This document shows positions 14,564-21,527 of a DNA stretch of 37,700 nt, one piece after another. Within the stretch, counting starts at the first letter, position 1. The number at the start of each line of letters is the position of its first letter. The stretch is from a virus. Its lineage: Duplodnaviria > Heunggongvirae > Uroviricota > Caudoviricetes. The stretch is from positions 1 to 37,700 of the IMG/VR virus record IMGVR_UViG_2541047736_000004, one strand, 5' to 3'. The translations under genes and the position numbers were made by a program. Below the pieces are notes generated by a model. The model was not told the origin of the DNA and did not search any database. It saw only the letters and a program-made list of their open reading frames with translations.

Positions 14564-15229
14564 ATGAAAATCATACAGTTACAAATGGTATTTTTTTACG
14601 ATTCATCAACGACTGTCGATTTCGATGGAATGTCGTATTTTATTAGGCAAACTTTTAAAAAGAAGGCAGGTATTGAATTAACAAACAATATGATGTTGGG
14701 CGTTTTACCTATGGATACCCCACCAGAGATTCCTCGTCTCCAATTGTTTTCTATAGATAATAAATTTAGAGTTCAATGCTCACTGCAGAGATGTGATTTG
14801 TTTTTTGAACGTATGGATTCTGAGCAAGAGGTAGACTTACATTTGTTTCAAGAAGTTTTCGATAGTGTGGTTGATATCCATAAAGAACTCAATAAGGATA
14901 TTATCAGAATAGGCTTGGTGGCCGTTAAGGCGGAATTAAACAACAACCCAAACAAAGAGATTGTTAAAAACTATCTTAGTAACAACATGCAGAATGATAG
15001 CGAAATAATTGAAGATATTAATTTAATGTATAATAAAAAATTCGAGTTTGAGCAGTCCATATTTAATTGTCATTTGTCGATTATGTCAGGATATGATATT
15101 GTCAGAGAACAACCAATGCTAGTGAAACAGATCGATGTGAATACAATCGAGAGTTTTATATTTAAAGATAAATATACCGCAGAAAAAACAAAAAAAGCCT
15201 TTTTAAGTAAAGTGAATGAAATTCAGTAA
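14564..15229 (+). CDS. Hypothetical soluble protein (221 aa), AT-rich island gene 1
   Basis: ORF in strongly AT-rich DNA; no recognised motif. Confidence 0.55.
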   Translation: MKIIQLQMVFFYDSSTTVDFDGMSYFIRQTFKKKAGIELTNNMMLGVLPMDTPPEIPRLQLFSIDNKFRVQCSLQRCDLFFERMDSEQEVDLHLFQEVFDSVVDIHKELNKDIIRIGLVAVKAELNNNPNKEIVKNYLSNNMQNDSEIIEDINLMYNKKFEFEQSIFNCHLSIMSGYDIVREQPMLVKQIDVNTIESFIFKDKYTAEKTKKAFLSKVNEIQ

Positions 15230-15243
15230 TGTGAGGTGGCTGA

Positions 15244-16203
15244 ATGAATAAGGATGATAATAAAAAGGATATAAAAAGAACTGCAAAAAATAATGCTATA
15301 GTCAACGATGACATGGCAAAAAGAACTGCGCATCATTCACTTTATTCTAATTCACAAGTATCGAATAGTACATCTACGTATACAGGAGGGGTACAAAAAA
15401 TTAGTAATTTGCAGATAGATAATAAAACTGCAACAGCTTCAAATAAAGAGCGGGAAAGTATATCCATCAAAGACGCGGCACCACAAAAATTAATAAAAAC
15501 CTCTCTTTTTGTTAATGAAAAAGAAATGTTGCATGAAGCTATAAAATACAGTTCAAAAGCAACTGTGCCGGTGATGGATAATACTGTCTCTAATGCCATT
15601 TTATCTAATTACTTTGTTAATAATAATTCTGAATCTACAATTTCTTTTAATAAAGAGAATGTAAAAAAATATACAAAAAGTGATATTGATAACATCCTCT
15701 GGAAAAATACCAATGATCAACTAACCAATTTTTCGCAAGAGTTGAATAAGAGCAAAAAGAATATTAATGATACTAAAAGAAAAATAGGTAAGGTAATGTC
15801 TTCATTATCTCAGCAAACTGCAAAGATTGAGCAATTTGATGCAACATTATCAAATGCTGAAAAAGATATACATGAGAAAGTTAAAAGCTTTGAATCGGAA
15901 GTAATTACAGCAAGGAACTCAATGCTGGGTGTCATTGCTTTATTTGCTTCTTTCTTTACTTTCATTTCTATTTCAGTAAACGTATTTTCTCGCGATATGT
16001 CTTTAAGCATGTCAATCTCAGTTTTGTTAGTGATATGGTCGTGCTTAATTAGCTTTATCTTTGTTTTTATGGCAGGAATTAGCAAGGGAGGAGCTTTTTT
16101 TACAAGCTCATCATTTATTAAGCATGCCATTTTTATGGTTGTGCTTTTTATTTCATCTTTCGCACTCCCTAAAGTTATTTTTAATATCTTTGCAATTAGC
16201 TGA
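15244..16203 (+). CDS. Hypothetical membrane protein (319 aa), three C-terminal TM helices, AT-rich island gene 2
   Basis: Asn/Lys/Ser-rich coiled-coil-like N-terminal region; three hydrophobic helices in residues ~230-315; starts 14 bp after gene 1. Confidence 0.55.
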   Translation: MNKDDNKKDIKRTAKNNAIVNDDMAKRTAHHSLYSNSQVSNSTSTYTGGVQKISNLQIDNKTATASNKERESISIKDAAPQKLIKTSLFVNEKEMLHEAIKYSSKATVPVMDNTVSNAILSNYFVNNNSESTISFNKENVKKYTKSDIDNILWKNTNDQLTNFSQELNKSKKNINDTKRKIGKVMSSLSQQTAKIEQFDATLSNAEKDIHEKVKSFESEVITARNSMLGVIALFASFFTFISISVNVFSRDMSLSMSISVLLVIWSCLISFIFVFMAGISKGGAFFTSSSFIKHAIFMVVLFISSFALPKVIFNIFAIS

Positions 16204-16315
16204 CTATCAGATGTTATCTTCAGTTGTTTAGGGTTGATTTAAAAGCGAATCTTAATATTTTCAAGTTTTGAATTTAGAAATAAAAAAGCCATAATATTGT
16301 CATCGGAGCCTAAAA

Positions 16316-16420
16316 AACTCCGGTGACTTCTGCGCTAAACGGGGACGTTTATGCGCACACACAATCCAAACTCTCATCTCCATTCACAGATGCAGAAATG
16401 CACCTACGATTTTTTACATT
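16316..16420. repeat. Direct repeat copy A (~105 bp, ~95% identical to 18250-18354)
   Basis: AACTCCGGTGACTTCTGCGCTAAACGGGGACGTTTATGCGCACA... occurs twice, flanking the Bro-N / 169-aa module. Confidence 0.85.
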
Positions 16421-16834
16421 CGGTGTTTTACTTCGACAGCCAGAATTGGGAGTCTCTATTCGTCTGGCGGCTAAAGGTGATATGGAAATCGTTATGTTTT
16501 GGCCTGAGGTAGTTGTAACTGTTGTAGCAGCTATGGCTGTGATCATCATGGTGTCCATTTACTGGGGTTGACGACATGATTTATCCGGCGCTATATTCTG
16601 TGCGTTGCCGCAAAATCGGCACACGGGATTGGCGTCCCGGGATACTACTCAACGCATACCGCGTTAAGCGGTTTTTTTGTGCGCTAAGCACGGCTATGCC
16701 CAAATTATGGTGGGCTGTGTGAGGGCTTCTTCGGAAGCGCCGGGTTTGAGTAGCCGGTTACGCCAACCTTACACAGTTCACCACCAGTCGATTGGCGTCG
16801 TTGGTGGTGATGGTTAACCTGATGAGGTGATACT

Positions 16835-17443
16835 ATGACTACTCAATTAGCATTCCACAAAACGACGTTTACCCCGATTTGCCACAATAACAGAATTTGG
16901 CTTACTGCCACTGAAGTTGGTTTAGCACTGGAATATGCGGACGATAAAGCAGTTCAGCGCATTTACTCTCGGCACTCAGATGAATTCACAGATATGATGA
17001 CAAGGGTGGTCAAAGTGACCACCCCTCGTGGAATGCAGGAGTCTCGAGTATTTAGCCTTCGCGGAGCCCATTTGATCGCCATGTTTGCTCGTACTCCTGT
17101 GGCCAAAGAATTCCGCCGCTGGGTTCTGGATATTCTCGATCGAGAAGTTCAACAATCCCCAATCACAAAACAATTCACTGATAACGAACTTTGCACACTC
17201 GCCTGGTTATGGCGAGCAAGTGATACGATGTTAACCGCCTGCCAGAACGTTACGCCCCTTCTTCAGGTCGCAGAGCATCGCGAAGCAGGTAGATTCACTT
17301 CAATCGAACAAGAATATCCTCGGATACTCAACAGGGCGCGAGAAATCCTTGCCAGAGAAACGGCGCATGTAAAATTCCAACCGTGGCAGGATGATAAGTG
17401 GAGTCGTGTGTTACCATATTTCCGTCAGAATCTGTTGCAATAA
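16835..17443 (+). CDS. Bro-N domain antirepressor-like protein (202 aa)
   Basis: N-terminal pattern FxxxxxxxRxxxxxGEPWF-like (ICHNNRIWLTATEVGLALEY) typical of Bro-N/KilA-N proteins. Confidence 0.6.
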   Translation: MTTQLAFHKTTFTPICHNNRIWLTATEVGLALEYADDKAVQRIYSRHSDEFTDMMTRVVKVTTPRGMQESRVFSLRGAHLIAMFARTPVAKEFRRWVLDILDREVQQSPITKQFTDNELCTLAWLWRASDTMLTACQNVTPLLQVAEHREAGRFTSIEQEYPRILNRAREILARETAHVKFQPWQDDKWSRVLPYFRQNLLQ

Positions 17444-17678
17444 AGTCACTAGTTAGAAATACTGCCAGCATTCTGCGATGACGGAAGTGCTGGCATTTTT
17501 TTTGGTAATGTGCGAGTCCATTTCATAAAATACGGGTACTGGAACTGGACGATATAATCTAAAAGATACCATTATCAGTAGCATTAAAATCGCTATGTGC
17601 CGATACGGATATAAATTATATTGATTGTTCACATACCTTATTGGATATTACTGAGGGGTGTTTATATAAGGTGTAACG

Positions 17679-18188
17679 ATGATGTGGAACTTTGACAGTG
17701 CCGACTTAAGTGCAATAGCAGCAGGCATTTCTGCGTTTGGCACATTAGCCGCAGCGGGGTCGGCGCTTGCAAGTTGGTACACGTCAAAAAAAGCGCTGCA
17801 GCTACAAAATAGAGTTTACCTTTATGAGTCTTTAAAGGCTTGCGCTGAGAGAGCCAATTCATCAGCTAAAGATAAGCGCGGATCTGAATGGAGCGTTAAT
17901 GATGCAGCGGATATCATCAGGTGCCTAGTACGGGCGATGGAGATCATCAAGCAGGATAGCCAGCAGAAAGAAGGTAATCAGGCATTAATGTTGAAACAGT
18001 ACTTTGTTAATCTGCTAATAATGGAACTGTACGAGGAAGTTCATAACGGTGATGCGGCTGATTCTGTTTTTAAAAGTACGGAACCTACACAAGTACTTGA
18101 TAACTTATGGAGCAAATGGCAGGAGGCTATAGCTTTTTTTGATATTTGGAATTACCCAGTTGCGACTGAGGAAGACTTGGCAGACTAA
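17679..18188 (+). CDS. Hypothetical protein with N-terminal hydrophobic helix (169 aa)
   Basis: ORF with a plausible RBS (AAGGTG); residues ~9-31 hydrophobic (LSAIAAGISAFGTLAAAGSALASWY); no recognised domain. Confidence 0.45.
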   Translation: MMWNFDSADLSAIAAGISAFGTLAAAGSALASWYTSKKALQLQNRVYLYESLKACAERANSSAKDKRGSEWSVNDAADIIRCLVRAMEIIKQDSQQKEGNQALMLKQYFVNLLIMELYEEVHNGDAADSVFKSTEPTQVLDNLWSKWQEAIAFFDIWNYPVATEEDLAD

Positions 18189-18249
18189 TTTTCAGCACAT
18201 TTGATTTCCAATAATCAACCAGCCATAATCATGCCATTGGAGCTTGAAC

Positions 18250-18354
18250 AACTCCGGTGACTTCTGCGCTAAACGGGGACGTTTATGCGCACATACAATC
18301 CAAACTCTCTTCTCCCTTCACAGATGCAGAGATGCACCTGCGATTTTTTGCATC
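18250..18354. repeat. Direct repeat copy B (partner of 16316-16420), directly upstream of ninB
   Basis: See copy A. Confidence 0.85.
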
Positions 18355-18382
18355 CAGCGTTTGACCTCTGCGGAGGTGAAGC

Positions 18383-20444: not shown

Positions 20445-21527
20445 TTAGAACTGGTAAACCATACCTACAGCAACGATATCATCGGTAGCAACGCCAGATG
20501 CTTTCGTGAAATCGCTCTTATCAATCAGGTTGATTTTGTAATCAACAAAAGTGGACATATTTTTGTTGAAGTAATAGGTTGCACCTACATCAATATATTC
20601 AACCAGGTCCTGATCACCCCACGCACCCAAGTCTTTTCCTTTAGATTGCAGGTAAGCAACGGACGGACGCAGACCGAAGTCGAACTGATATTGTGCAACT
20701 ACTTCGAAGTTTTGTGCTTTGTTGGCAATATGGTTATTACCAAAAACAGTCATGTTCTGGGTTTCAGAATAGGTGGTAGCCAGATAGATGTTGTTCGCAT
20801 CATATTTCAGACCAGCTGCCCATACTTCAGCATTTTGACCAGATGCATTCAGGCTGTTGTTACCGTAGATAACCTGATTATTAGTGCGGTCAGATTTAGC
20901 ATAGGTTGCACCTACACCGAATCCTTCATACTCATAAGTAGTGGAGAAACCGAAACCATCACCATTAGCTTCAGTTACGTCAGTGCGGTCATTTTTACCC
21001 TGATACTGAGCAGCAAAGTTCAGACCATCAACCAGACCAAAGAAGTCGTTGTTACGATAAGTTGCAACACCAGTGGTGCGACCAGTCATGAACACATCTG
21101 TTTGGGTCCAGGTATCGCCACCGAATTCTGGCAGAACGTCAGTCCACGCACCGATGTCGTATGCTACACCGTAGTTACGGCCGTAATCGATTGAGCCGTA
21201 GTCACCGAATTTCAGGCCTGCAAATGCAAGACGGGTTTTGTCTTTGGAGGAACCTTGAGATTCAGCGCGGTTGCCTTTGAATTCATATTCCCACTGACCG
21301 AAACCAGTCAGTTGATCGTTGATTTGGGTTTCACCTTTGAAGCCAAGACGGGCATAAGTAGTATCACCATCATCTGCATCATTAGAGGAGAAGTAGTGCT
21401 TAGCATTAACTTTCCCGTACAGATCCAGCTTGTTACTGTCTTTATTATAAATTTCAGCTGCCTGAGCAGACATCGCCATCAGTACTGATGCAGCTACAGC
21501 AGAAATTGCCACTGTTAATTTTTTCAT
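20445..21527 (-). CDS. nmpC: Outer-membrane porin of the OmpC/OmpF family (360 aa), prophage moron
   Basis: Signal peptide plus typical porin beta-barrel sequence ending in F; recognised as NmpC of DLP12-type prophages; antisense to the late operon. Confidence 0.9.

What the first reader, a model, noticed from the sequence alone, without database searches (positions are those of the whole stretch)
17679..18188. 169-aa protein with an N-terminal membrane anchor in the nin-region cargo module
This ORF has a hydrophobic N-terminal helix (residues ~9-31) followed by a soluble domain with no motif I recognise, sitting downstream of the Bro-N gene and inside the repeat-bounded module. Single small membrane-anchored proteins in this region of lambdoid phages are often superinfection-exclusion or toxin-like factors.
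Basis: inference. Interest (0 to 1): 0.45.

Follow-up and report, generated by a model that had tools for sequence, protein, structure and literature searches.

The report
Orphan membrane-anchored prophage cargo protein
This is a real, stand-alone accessory gene of lambda-like prophages that encodes a small protein anchored in the inner membrane; its function is unknown, but other prophages carry anti-phage defence genes at the same spot, so it is a reasonable though unproven candidate for a new phage-exclusion factor.

Summary
The ORF is real: 17679..18188, + strand, 169 aa (possibly starting at 17682). It equals E. coli WP_000990013.1 and matches phrog_1779 (function unknown) over its full length. 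It has no Pfam, NCBIfam, PADLOC, PDB-sequence or significant fold match.

The family is tiny: 35 clusters among 1.84 billion representatives, and every context examined was a lambdoid prophage or a prophage remnant. All 32 aligned members share four features:
- an acidic N-tail of about 9 residues;
- an uncharged Ala/Gly/Ser-rich helix, median 21 residues;
- a Lys/Arg cluster after that helix;
- a helical domain of about 120 residues, often ending in an acidic T-D-E-D-L-x-D tail.

This pattern fits a single-pass membrane protein with the N-terminus outside and the domain in the cytoplasm.

The gene is its own unit. It follows the strong terminator of a C4/IsrK-controlled antirepressor gene. 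An invariant TTG-N20-GATATT promoter-like element precedes it, and a conserved terminator-bearing leader of ybcN/ninB follows it. In other E. coli prophages the same slot holds BstA, a HEPN gene pair or other orphan genes.

The exclusion/toxin reading is plausible by position but untested. The protein is not homologous to SieA, SieB, Ren, BstA or HEPN.

The parts
16279..16434 (+). Left copy of the 156-nt direct repeat. It duplicates the ylcH-containing leader that normally precedes ybcN/ninB and marks the left joint of the inserted module.
   Evidence: the repeat finder family D1, 87% identity; pairwise alignment.
16591..16788 (+). Regulatory RNA region of the upstream antirepressor gene: c4-a1b1 targets (16591-16643), IsrK (16606-16678) and C4 antisense RNA (16703-16788). 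This is context, not part of the 169-aa unit.
   Evidence: Rfam: IsrK 58.7 bits (gathering score 50); C4 74.8 bits (gathering score 45). The layout matches isrK-orf45-anrP of Gifsy-1 (PMC4825925).
16835..17443 (+). Antirepressor-type gene (Bro-N + P22AR C-terminal domain), the upstream neighbour.
   Evidence: Pfam PF02498 at 4.4e-10 and PF10548 at 1.7e-17; PHROG anti-repressor families.
17463..17504 (+). Intrinsic terminator of the antirepressor gene: a hairpin with about 13 base pairs followed by A and eight U. It separates that gene from the 169-aa gene.
   Evidence: RNA fold -23.2 kcal/mol, z = -2.3; sequence read.
17621..17649 (+). Conserved sigma-70-like promoter element: TTGATT, 17-nt spacer, GATATT. 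It lies 30-58 nt upstream of the ATG.
   Evidence: TTG and GATATT are invariant at fixed spacing in 6 loci whose flanks have diverged (alignment A4; pattern scan). Two further loci have a perfect TGnTATAAT at the equivalent place. It scores 8/12, just under the scanner's threshold.
17668..17673 (+). Shine-Dalgarno sequence AAGGTG.
   Evidence: Read from the sequence.
17679..18188 (+). Coding sequence of the 169-aa protein (alternative start at 17682); member of phrog_1779; identical to WP_000990013.1.
17706..17777 (+). Codons 10-33: the Ala/Gly/Ser-rich uncharged helix, the predicted transmembrane anchor. The N-tail is acidic (D6, D9) and K37, K38 and R45 follow the helix.
   Evidence: Hydropathy and charge statistics. 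AlphaFold2 gives one continuous helix 7-63 projecting from the domain.
17811..18143 (+). Codons about 45-155: compact all-helical domain, predicted to be cytoplasmic. Conserved motifs are L-K-x-x-A-E-R-A-N, W-x-F-x-x-A-A-N-I, K-x-Y-F, P-D and W...F-F.
   Evidence: Alignments A1 and A2; AlphaFold2 block-mean pLDDT of about 73-98 over residues 41-150.
18165..18185 (+). Codons 163-169: conserved acidic C-terminal tail T-E-E-D-L-A-D (family consensus T-D-E-D-L-x-D).
   Evidence: Positions T163, E165, D166, L167 and D169 are invariant in A1. The tail is present in most of A2 but not all.
18189..18382 (+). Conserved structured leader between the gene and ybcN; it contains the right copy of the repeat (18213-18368). 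It holds a promoter-like TTGATT-17-CATAAT (18201-18229), two hairpins, a terminator-like hairpin plus U-run (18325-18352) and most of the small ORF ylcH.
   Evidence: The RNAalifold consensus has 13 pairs kept through compensatory changes. ylcH is annotated. P22 carries a terminator at the same place before ninB.

Best explanation
The gene is a stand-alone accessory ('moron'-type) cassette of lambdoid prophages.

It encodes a single-pass inner-membrane protein. The acidic N-tail of about 9 residues faces the periplasm. A weakly hydrophobic, small-residue-rich helix spans the membrane. A non-enzymatic all-helical domain of about 120 residues, with an acidic C-terminal tail, sits in the cytoplasm.

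The gene probably has its own sigma-70 promoter, so it could be expressed from the repressed prophage and immediately on infection. It is also read through from PR during lytic growth.

The most likely role is in phage-phage conflict. The protein would bind a host or incoming-phage component at the cytoplasmic face of the inner membrane and exclude superinfecting phages.

Shown here: the gene, the conservation of its architecture, its autonomy from neighbours, its slot and its recent spread. Inferred: membrane insertion and topology, promoter activity, and the exclusion function.
For: Architecture:
- Every one of 32 aligned members has an N-terminal run of 15-27 residues without charged or strongly polar residues. 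The flanks follow the positive-inside rule, -1.2 on the N side and +2.1 on the C side.
- The only fusion in the family (P0042, 288 aa) adds three ordinary transmembrane helices. Their topology also puts the domain in the cytoplasm.
- AlphaFold2 (pLDDT 82.5) gives one helix 7-63 projecting from a five-helix domain.
- The nearly invariant residues are mostly hydrophobic plus N60, Q43 and S32. There is no catalytic-looking set.

Autonomy:
- A strong terminator lies upstream.
- The TTG-N20-GATATT element is invariant in six diverged loci, and TGnTATAAT is present in two more.
- A conserved terminator-like hairpin lies downstream, and a strong terminator directly follows the gene in L011.
- GC content is 0.44, against 0.50-0.53 for the neighbouring core genes.
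- No partner gene is conserved.

Mobility: among six E. coli prophages the gene has pS of at most 0.03, while the adjacent ybcN has pS of 0.08-0.24. This points to a recently spread cassette on diverged backbones.

Slot: the same position holds BstA (PADLOC 4e-70), a HEPN gene with a partner, or other orphan genes in related prophages. The adjacent slot holds PD-lambda-1/SNIPE. [quoted passage not shown]
Against: - There is no homology or significant fold similarity to any characterised exclusion or defence protein.
- Guilt by position is weak. The same prophage type also carries non-defence cargo such as emrE, a porin, a lipocalin and GNAT.
- In this allele the helix is only marginally hydrophobic (Kyte-Doolittle 1.59, Hessa +2.7).
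- No dedicated topology predictor could be run, and there are no expression data.
- Distant members sit at other prophage positions, for example after N in the PL operon or beside a pyocin gene. The slot argument therefore applies only to the close subfamily.
- pN/pS of about 0.4-2 rests on at most 8 changes per pair.
Confidence: 0.35

Rival explanations
1. Counter-defence or anti-exclusion factor for the phage itself. The membrane-tethered protein would neutralise a membrane-associated host or prophage defence (of the Rex, Zorya, Kiwa or SNIPE kind) early in infection. In lambda, Ren occupies this position between P and ninB.
For: - The gene occupies the Ren-equivalent position, directly before the ninB/ybcN block and on the early rightward strand.
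- Its own promoter would allow expression before N antitermination acts.
- It is carried by viable phages, PhiR26_1 and PhiR5_1.
Against: - There is no similarity to Ren (hhalign probability below 1%).
- PhiR26_1 and PhiR5_1 carry ren as well as this gene.
- The identifiable alternatives in the same slot are defence-type genes, not anti-defence genes.
Confidence: 0.2
2. Abortive-infection effector. The cytoplasmic domain senses an infection cue, and the small-residue-rich helix then oligomerises into a leak or pore, or leaves the membrane as SAR domains do, collapsing the membrane potential.
For: - About 60% of the helix residues are Ala/Gly/Ser/Thr family-wide, and 74% in this allele. An ordinary transmembrane helix of P0042 has 26%.
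- This composition favours tight helix-helix packing and resembles SAR and pinholin helices (that resemblance is from general knowledge).
- BstA, an abortive-infection protein, occupies the same slot elsewhere.
Against: - The charge pattern is the reverse of SAR endolysins: an acidic N-tail and a basic C-flank.
- There is only a single helix.
- No antidote or self-immunity element is evident, and no partner gene is conserved.
- No toxicity data exist.
Confidence: 0.15
3. Lysogenic-conversion factor unrelated to phages. A membrane protein would modulate host envelope physiology or stress tolerance, like other DLP12-type cargo.
For: DLP12-like prophages carry emrE, nmpC/ompD-type porins, bor, a lipocalin and ybcL/ybcM in the same general regions (the K-12 gene order is from general knowledge).
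Against: - In every context examined the family was in a lambdoid prophage or a prophage remnant, never in a chromosomal operon.
- It is rare (181 of 5426 E. coli genomes) and recently spread. That pattern is more typical of conflict genes.
Confidence: 0.15
4. Not a membrane anchor. The Ala-rich helix would be a soluble oligomerisation helix (an Alacoil-type coiled coil) or a cleavable signal peptide that exports the domain.
For: - The helix of this allele is only marginally hydrophobic.
- A-L-A-S at residues 29-32 resembles an AxA cleavage site (read from the sequence).
- AlphaFold2 confidence for residues 1-30 is moderate, 53-75.
Against: - Every member has an uninterrupted uncharged run of about 21 residues followed by a Lys/Arg cluster, and the region ahead of the helix is acidic rather than basic.
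- A signal peptide needs a basic N-region and a shorter hydrophobic core.
- P0042 places this helix fourth, after three bona fide transmembrane helices.
Confidence: 0.1

Closest known systems
P22 SieA and P22/lambda SieB (prophage superinfection-exclusion membrane proteins)
   Same: - Small (164-192 aa), single-gene, prophage-encoded inner-membrane proteins.
- P22 sieA and sieB have annotated promoters of their own.
- P22 sieA sits beside the immI antirepressor region, as this gene sits beside a C4/IsrK-controlled antirepressor.
   Different: - No sequence relationship: hhalign probability is below 1% for each.
- SieA and SieB have several strongly hydrophobic helices. This protein has one weak Ala-rich helix and a larger cytoplasmic domain.
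- No Esc-like internal product is evident.
HK97 gp15 and lactococcal Sie2009 (moron-encoded proteins with an N-terminal anchor that block DNA entry)
   Same: The general design is shared: a moron gene encoding a protein of about 160-180 aa with an N-terminal membrane anchor, acting alone (from general knowledge; not tested here).
   Different: - Their sequences were not compared here.
- Sie2009 exposes its domain outside the cell, whereas here the charge pattern puts the domain in the cytoplasm.
- No function has been shown for this family.
SNIPE / PD-lambda-1 (membrane-tethered nuclease that cleaves injected phage DNA)
   Same: - N-terminal transmembrane anchor with the working domains in the cytoplasm (bioRxiv 10.1101/2025.11.03.685801).
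- Encoded in the neighbouring cargo slot of the same prophage type: PhiR26_1 carries both genes.
   Different: - SNIPE has DUF4041 and GIY-YIG nuclease domains and is about 500 aa.
- This protein has no nuclease or any other recognisable domain, and no PADLOC hit.
BstA and HEPN cargo occupying the same slot in other E. coli prophages
   Same: The genomic position is identical: between the P22AR antirepressor gene (or its remnant) and ylcH-ybcN.
   Different: - Unrelated proteins: hhalign against the O157 HEPN protein gives a probability below 1%, and there is no BstA hit.
- A few HEPN toxins appear among Foldseek hits only at E of 0.5-3, and no Rx4-6H motif is conserved.
Pf3 coat protein type of membrane topology (N-terminus outside, C-terminus inside, no signal peptide)
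   Same: A short acidic N-tail, a single hydrophobic helix and a basic C-flank (the Pf3 comparison is from general knowledge).
   Different: Pf3 coat is a 44-residue virion protein. Here the helix carries a cytoplasmic domain of about 135 residues, and the gene lies in the early accessory region.

Membership tests
phrog_1779 (PHROGs, function unknown) | Full-length match to the family HMM | tested here: met
   E=1.2e-102 over residues 1-169 of 169. All 32 aligned relatives match it.
Moron (autonomous accessory cassette of a temperate phage) | Own promoter upstream of the gene | tested here: inconclusive
   TTG-N20-GATATT is invariant in 6 diverged loci, and a perfect extended -10 is present in 2 more. 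Promoter activity was not measured.
Moron (autonomous accessory cassette of a temperate phage) | Flanking terminators and base composition unlike the neighbours | tested here: met
   Terminator at 17463-17504 upstream. Conserved terminator-like hairpin at 18325-18352 downstream. GC 0.44 against 0.50-0.53.
Moron (autonomous accessory cassette of a temperate phage) | Present or absent, or replaced by unrelated genes, in otherwise related phages | tested here: met
   Six different slot contents were found in related E. coli prophages. pS is at most 0.03, against 0.08-0.24 for the adjacent ybcN.
Moron (autonomous accessory cassette of a temperate phage) | Expression from the repressed prophage | not testable with these tools
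   Needs RNA-seq or 5'-RACE on a lysogen.
Single-pass inner-membrane protein, N-terminus outside and C-terminus inside | One hydrophobic span of about 20 residues with positive-inside flanks | tested here: met
   Uncharged run of median 21 residues in 32 of 32 members. Kyte-Doolittle maximum at or above 1.6 in 27 of 31. Flank charges -1.2 and +2.1. The topology of the P0042 fusion agrees.
Single-pass inner-membrane protein, N-terminus outside and C-terminus inside | Demonstrated membrane insertion and orientation | not testable with these tools
   No dedicated topology predictor or experiment was available.
SieB (Pfam PF14163; lambda and P22) | Sequence or profile similarity to SieB | tested here: not met
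   No Pfam hit for the window protein, and PF14163 is absent from the families listed for the 32 members. hhalign probability is 0.5% against lambda SieB and 0.9% against P22 SieB.
SieA (P22) | Sequence or profile similarity to SieA | tested here: not met
   hhalign probability 0.1%.
Ren (lambda) | Sequence or profile similarity to Ren | tested here: not met
   hhalign probability 0.05%. Ren is encoded separately in PhiR26_1 and PhiR5_1.
HEPN ribonuclease toxins | Conserved Rx4-6H motif and a HEPN profile match | tested here: not met
   No conserved Arg...His pair in A2. No PF05168 hit. hhalign probability 0.06% against the O157 HEPN protein.
HEPN ribonuclease toxins | HEPN four-helix fold | tested here: inconclusive
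SAR (signal-anchor-release) domain proteins | Weakly hydrophobic helix rich in Gly/Ala/Ser/Thr | tested here: met
   74% small residues in this allele and 60% family-wide, against 26% in an ordinary helix of P0042.
SAR (signal-anchor-release) domain proteins | Basic N-terminus, N-in/C-out orientation and a periplasmic enzymatic domain | tested here: not met
   The N-tail is acidic and the C-flank basic. No lysozyme or other enzyme domain is present.
BstA and other PADLOC-listed defence proteins | Match to a PADLOC model | tested here: not met
   No PADLOC family at E up to 1.
Sec-exported protein with a cleavable signal peptide | Basic N-region, a hydrophobic core of 7-15 residues and an AxA site | tested here: not met
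   The N-region has D6 and D9 and no Lys or Arg. The uncharged run is 27 residues here and has a median of 21 in the family. An A-L-A motif alone is present.

The most novel reading that the evidence does not exclude
phrog_1779 would be a previously unrecognised single-protein anti-phage system. A sentinel with its N-terminus outside is held in the inner membrane by a deliberately weak, SAR-like Ala/Gly-rich helix. Its cytoplasmic helical domain and acidic tail recognise an incoming-phage component at the injection site. The protein then either blocks genome entry or is triggered to oligomerise or leave the membrane and abort infection.
Probability: 0.12. Interest if true: 0.7.

Novelty: new member of a known kind. 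Interest (0 to 1): 0.35.

Why it matters
If the protein excludes phages, it would add a structurally new, very small, single-gene membrane defence. It would also define the short slot between the antirepressor gene and the ninB/ybcN leader as a second cargo hotspot of DLP12-type lambdoid prophages, next to the one that carries PD-lambda-1/SNIPE and HepS. Several unknown genes in that slot would then become candidates as well.

The gene is easy to test. It is 510 bp, acts alone, and is carried by two phages that were isolated on laboratory strains. If it has no phage phenotype, it remains one more orphan prophage membrane protein.

Tried and rejected
- **Domain and sequence libraries:** nothing for this protein in Pfam, NCBIfam, PADLOC or PDB sequences, whether searched with the single sequence or the profile.
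- **HEPN lead:** I rejected the weak HEPN-toxin Foldseek hits, because no Rx4-6H motif is conserved and hhalign is negative.
- **Known exclusion proteins:** hhalign against lambda SieB, lambda Ren, P22 SieA and P22 SieB was negative in every case.
- **Partner gene:** the small ORFs next to distant members are unrelated to each other.
- **Obligate link to the Bro-N gene:** rejected, because the upstream neighbours differ in other genera.
- **tRNA genes in the window:** none.
- **Operator link:** the conserved upstream element is unrelated to the cI/cro intergenic (operator) region of this prophage and is not repeated in the window beyond chance.
- **Literature:** no paper mentions WP_000990013 or phrog_1779, and none found for PhiR26_1, PhiR5_1 or their accessions describes this gene; the one defence paper containing the string 'PhiR5' showed nothing about it in the passages read.
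- **Genome scan:** the wide alignment A2 was too divergent to seed the genome-contig scan. With A1 it returned only three loci.
- **Diversifying selection:** too few substitutions to conclude anything.

Full report
**1. The observation**

The ORF lies at 17679..18188 on the + strand and encodes 169 aa. An AAGGTG Shine-Dalgarno sequence sits 5 nt upstream. In three other E. coli alleles (PhiR5_1, B7A, PCP06021) the first ATG is ATA, so the second ATG at 17682 is sufficient as a start.

The protein is identical to WP_000990013.1, which RefSeq annotates as 'hypothetical protein'. The window is a DLP12-type lambdoid prophage. In E. coli AR_0077 a prophage that matches the window identically at this gene and shares the same gene order from the replication genes to the antiterminator Q gene sits next to tRNA-Arg and intD.

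Residues 10-36 contain no charged or strongly polar residue. In this allele the segment is only marginally hydrophobic: best 19-residue Kyte-Doolittle mean 1.59, summed Hessa scale +2.7 kcal/mol, 74% Ala/Gly/Ser/Thr.

The upstream gene carries Bro-N and P22AR_C domains. A 156-nt direct repeat with 87% identity bounds the module.

**2. A real but orphan protein family**

- The protein matches phrog_1779 (function unknown) end to end, E=1e-102.
- It has no Pfam, NCBIfam, PADLOC or PDB-sequence match, with either the single sequence or a profile.
- The family is very small: 15 clusters among 5.8 billion proteins and 35 representatives among 1.84 billion.
- The gene occurs in 181 of 5426 complete E. 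coli genomes and in 2 of 50,697 phage records.
- The full-length members are 150-180 aa, except P0042 (288 aa).
- With the 32-sequence alignment, AlphaFold2 reaches pLDDT 82.5. It predicts one continuous helix 7-63, five further helices to residue 154, and a short C-terminal helix.

**3. Membrane anchor and topology (inferred)**

- Every one of the 32 aligned members has an N-terminal run of 15-27 residues (median 21) free of D/E/K/R/N/Q/H/P. Elsewhere in the proteins the longest such run has a median of 6 and a maximum of 9.
- The family mean Kyte-Doolittle maximum is 1.89, and 27 of 31 members reach 1.6.
- The 12 residues before the helix carry a mean net charge of -1.2, and the 15 after it carry +2.1. 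By the positive-inside rule the short N-tail is periplasmic and the domain is cytoplasmic.
- P0042 adds three ordinary hydrophobic helices after a basic N-terminus. The family helix then becomes the fourth span, and the domain again ends up in the cytoplasm.
- The helix is unusually rich in small residues, about 60% against 26% for an ordinary helix of P0042. This composition favours helix-helix packing and recalls SAR and pinholin helices. The charge pattern is the opposite of SAR endolysins, so I do not file the protein as a SAR protein.
- A cleavable signal peptide is unlikely, because the N-region is acidic and the hydrophobic core is too long.

**4. The cytoplasmic domain**

The nearly invariant positions are mostly hydrophobic core residues plus S32, Q43 and N60. 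No conserved His, Cys or Asp set suggests catalysis. The tail T-D-E-D-L-x-D is invariant in the close subfamily and present in many distant members. I therefore infer a binding or scaffolding role rather than an enzyme.

**5. Gene organisation**

Upstream of the Bro-N gene, Rfam finds IsrK (58.7 bits), C4 antisense RNA (74.8 bits) and the a1/b1 targets. That gene is therefore an RNA-controlled antirepressor of the Gifsy-1 isrK-orf45-anrP type (PMC4825925). It ends in a strong intrinsic terminator at 17463-17504.

The 169-aa gene begins 236 nt after the stop codon of the antirepressor gene (174 nt after its terminator), and 30-58 nt upstream of its ATG lies TTGATT-17 nt-GATATT. The TTG and the GATATT are invariant at the same spacing in six loci from different hosts whose flanking intergenic sequence has diverged. 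Two other loci carry a perfect TGnTATAAT there. I read this as a conserved sigma-70 promoter, but activity is untested.

Downstream, a leader of about 190 nt is conserved in front of ybcN or ninB in the window, L004, L005, L006 and L009. It contains a promoter-like TTGATT-17-CATAAT, hairpins with compensatory changes, a terminator-like hairpin with a U-run, and the small ORF ylcH. P22 has an annotated terminator at the same place before ninB. The left copy of the 156-nt repeat is a second copy of this leader. The module of C4/IsrK RNA, antirepressor gene and 169-aa gene therefore looks as if it entered by recombination within the leader.

GC content is 0.44, against 0.50-0.53 for P, ybcN and rusA.

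**6. What the gene is linked to**

In Enterobacter, Phytobacter, Scandinavium and metagenomic lambdoid phages, the close homologues (44-77% identity) are always the last gene before the NinB or DUF1367 block, on the early rightward strand. Their upstream neighbours differ: DUF551, Ea8.5 or unknown genes. The link to Bro-N is therefore local to E. coli.

Distant members sit in other accessory places of lambdoid prophages:
- after N in the leftward operon, followed by a strong terminator (sequence);
- between replication genes and a pyocin S gene;
- in a prophage remnant.

No neighbouring gene is conserved.

**7. The slot is variable and carries defence genes**

In E. coli prophages with the same flanks, the space between the P22AR gene (or its remnant) and ylcH-ybcN holds different contents:

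| Strain or phage | Slot content |
|---|---|
| Window, AR_0077, PhiR26_1, PhiR5_1, Ec-U3, B7A, PCP06021 | the 169-aa gene |
| STEC306 | BstA, cut by IS2 (PADLOC 4e-70) |
| 99RCEF | 58-aa + 210-aa unknown genes |
| TK3889 | 260-aa unknown gene |
| FORC_041 | 118-aa unknown gene |

The neighbouring slot, between the replication genes and the antirepressor, holds PD-lambda-1/SNIPE in PhiR26_1. In Gifsy-1 that slot holds the defence gene hepS, and the authors note that accessory genes are often encoded there in lambdoid prophages (PMC13043305).

Among six E. coli prophages the 169-aa gene differs at pS of at most 0.03, while the adjacent ybcN differs at pS 0.08-0.24 with pN/pS 0.07-0.19. The gene is thus a recently spread cassette on diverged backbones. 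Its few changes are mostly amino-acid replacements (pN/pS 0.4-2), but there are too few of them to claim selection.

**8. Interpretation**

The anatomy supports a stand-alone accessory gene for a single-pass inner-membrane protein, with the N-terminus outside and a cytoplasmic binding domain. I put about 0.8 on the membrane anchor and about 0.85 on accessory status.

The function is inferred from position only. I consider a role in phage-phage conflict most likely, either exclusion at the inner membrane (0.35) or abortive infection (0.15). Counter-defence (0.2), a host-physiology role (0.15) and a non-membrane protein (0.1) remain open.

**9. Comparison with known systems and verdict**

By design the gene resembles P22 SieA/SieB, HK97 gp15, lactococcal Sie2009 and the membrane-tethered SNIPE. 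Membership in SieA, SieB, Ren, HEPN and BstA was tested and not met. HK97 gp15 and Sie2009 were not compared.

It is therefore a new, unrelated example of a familiar kind of thing: a moron-encoded small membrane protein. Its function is unknown. Interest is moderate: a specialist would not be surprised, but the gene is rare, well delimited, sits in a defence-rich slot and is simple to test.

Noticed in passing
window 14564-16203: This is an AT-rich two-gene cassette (GC 0.31 against 0.50 for the window). It encodes a 221-aa protein (phrog_24110) and a 319-aa protein (phrog_25335) with weak coiled-coil-type Pfam hits and a hydrophobic C-terminal region. Neither has a Pfam, NCBIfam or PADLOC match. 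The cassette fills the slot between replication gene P and the antirepressor module, where PhiR26_1 carries PD-lambda-1/SNIPE and Gifsy-1 carries hepS. It is found in 22 of 5426 E. coli genomes, both genes together in 21 of them. It is a candidate two-gene defence system.
   Followed up: partly
window 16591-16788 and 16835-17443: The Bro-N/P22AR gene is preceded by IsrK, C4 antisense RNA and the a1/b1 target sites, all but the targets above the Rfam gathering scores. A 46-codon ORF (16677-16817) sits where Gifsy-1 has orf45. This is an isrK-orf45-anrP-type, RNA-controlled antirepressor module.
   Followed up: partly
window 18189-18382 and 16255-16451; L004, L005, L006, L009: A conserved structured leader lies in front of ybcN/ninB. 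It has a promoter-like TTGATT-17-CATAAT, three hairpins with compensatory base changes (the last followed by a U-run) and the small ORF ylcH. It is present twice in the window. It may be the tR2-equivalent terminator or attenuator, or the start of the antQ-operon transcript described for Gifsy-1.
   Followed up: partly
L023 4671-5467; L027 3010-5275; L025 3051-3856; L026 2986-3768; L028 3273-3629: In other E. coli prophages the slot occupied here by the 169-aa gene holds a HEPN gene plus a 133-aa partner (O157:H7), an IS2-disrupted BstA gene (STEC306), or three different unknown genes of 118-260 aa. None of the unknown genes has a Pfam or PADLOC hit.
   Followed up: partly
window 17679-17681: The start codon is polymorphic. 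The first ATG is ATA in PhiR5_1, B7A and PCP06021, and RefSeq annotates those genes from the second ATG. The functional start may be 17682.
   Followed up: yes
window 17453-17632, minus strand: A 59-codon GTG-started ORF with a hydrophobic stretch (IAILMLLIMVSF) lies antisense in the AT-rich spacer between the antirepressor terminator and the 169-aa gene. It is not annotated in any record I looked at and may be a chance ORF.
   Followed up: no
window 20445-21527, minus strand: An OmpC/NmpC-type porin gene (360 aa) lies between the Q antiterminator gene and the lysis genes, as in PhiR26_1, where it is annotated OmpD. Strain AR_0077, identical to the window across the 169-aa region, has lipocalin, YbgA and HTH genes there instead. 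The window and AR_0077 therefore differ downstream of Q.
   Followed up: no
P0042 (288 aa, metagenomic relative): This is the only domain fusion in the family. Three ordinary transmembrane helices precede the family's own Ala-rich helix and domain. Its genomic context could not be looked up.
   Followed up: partly
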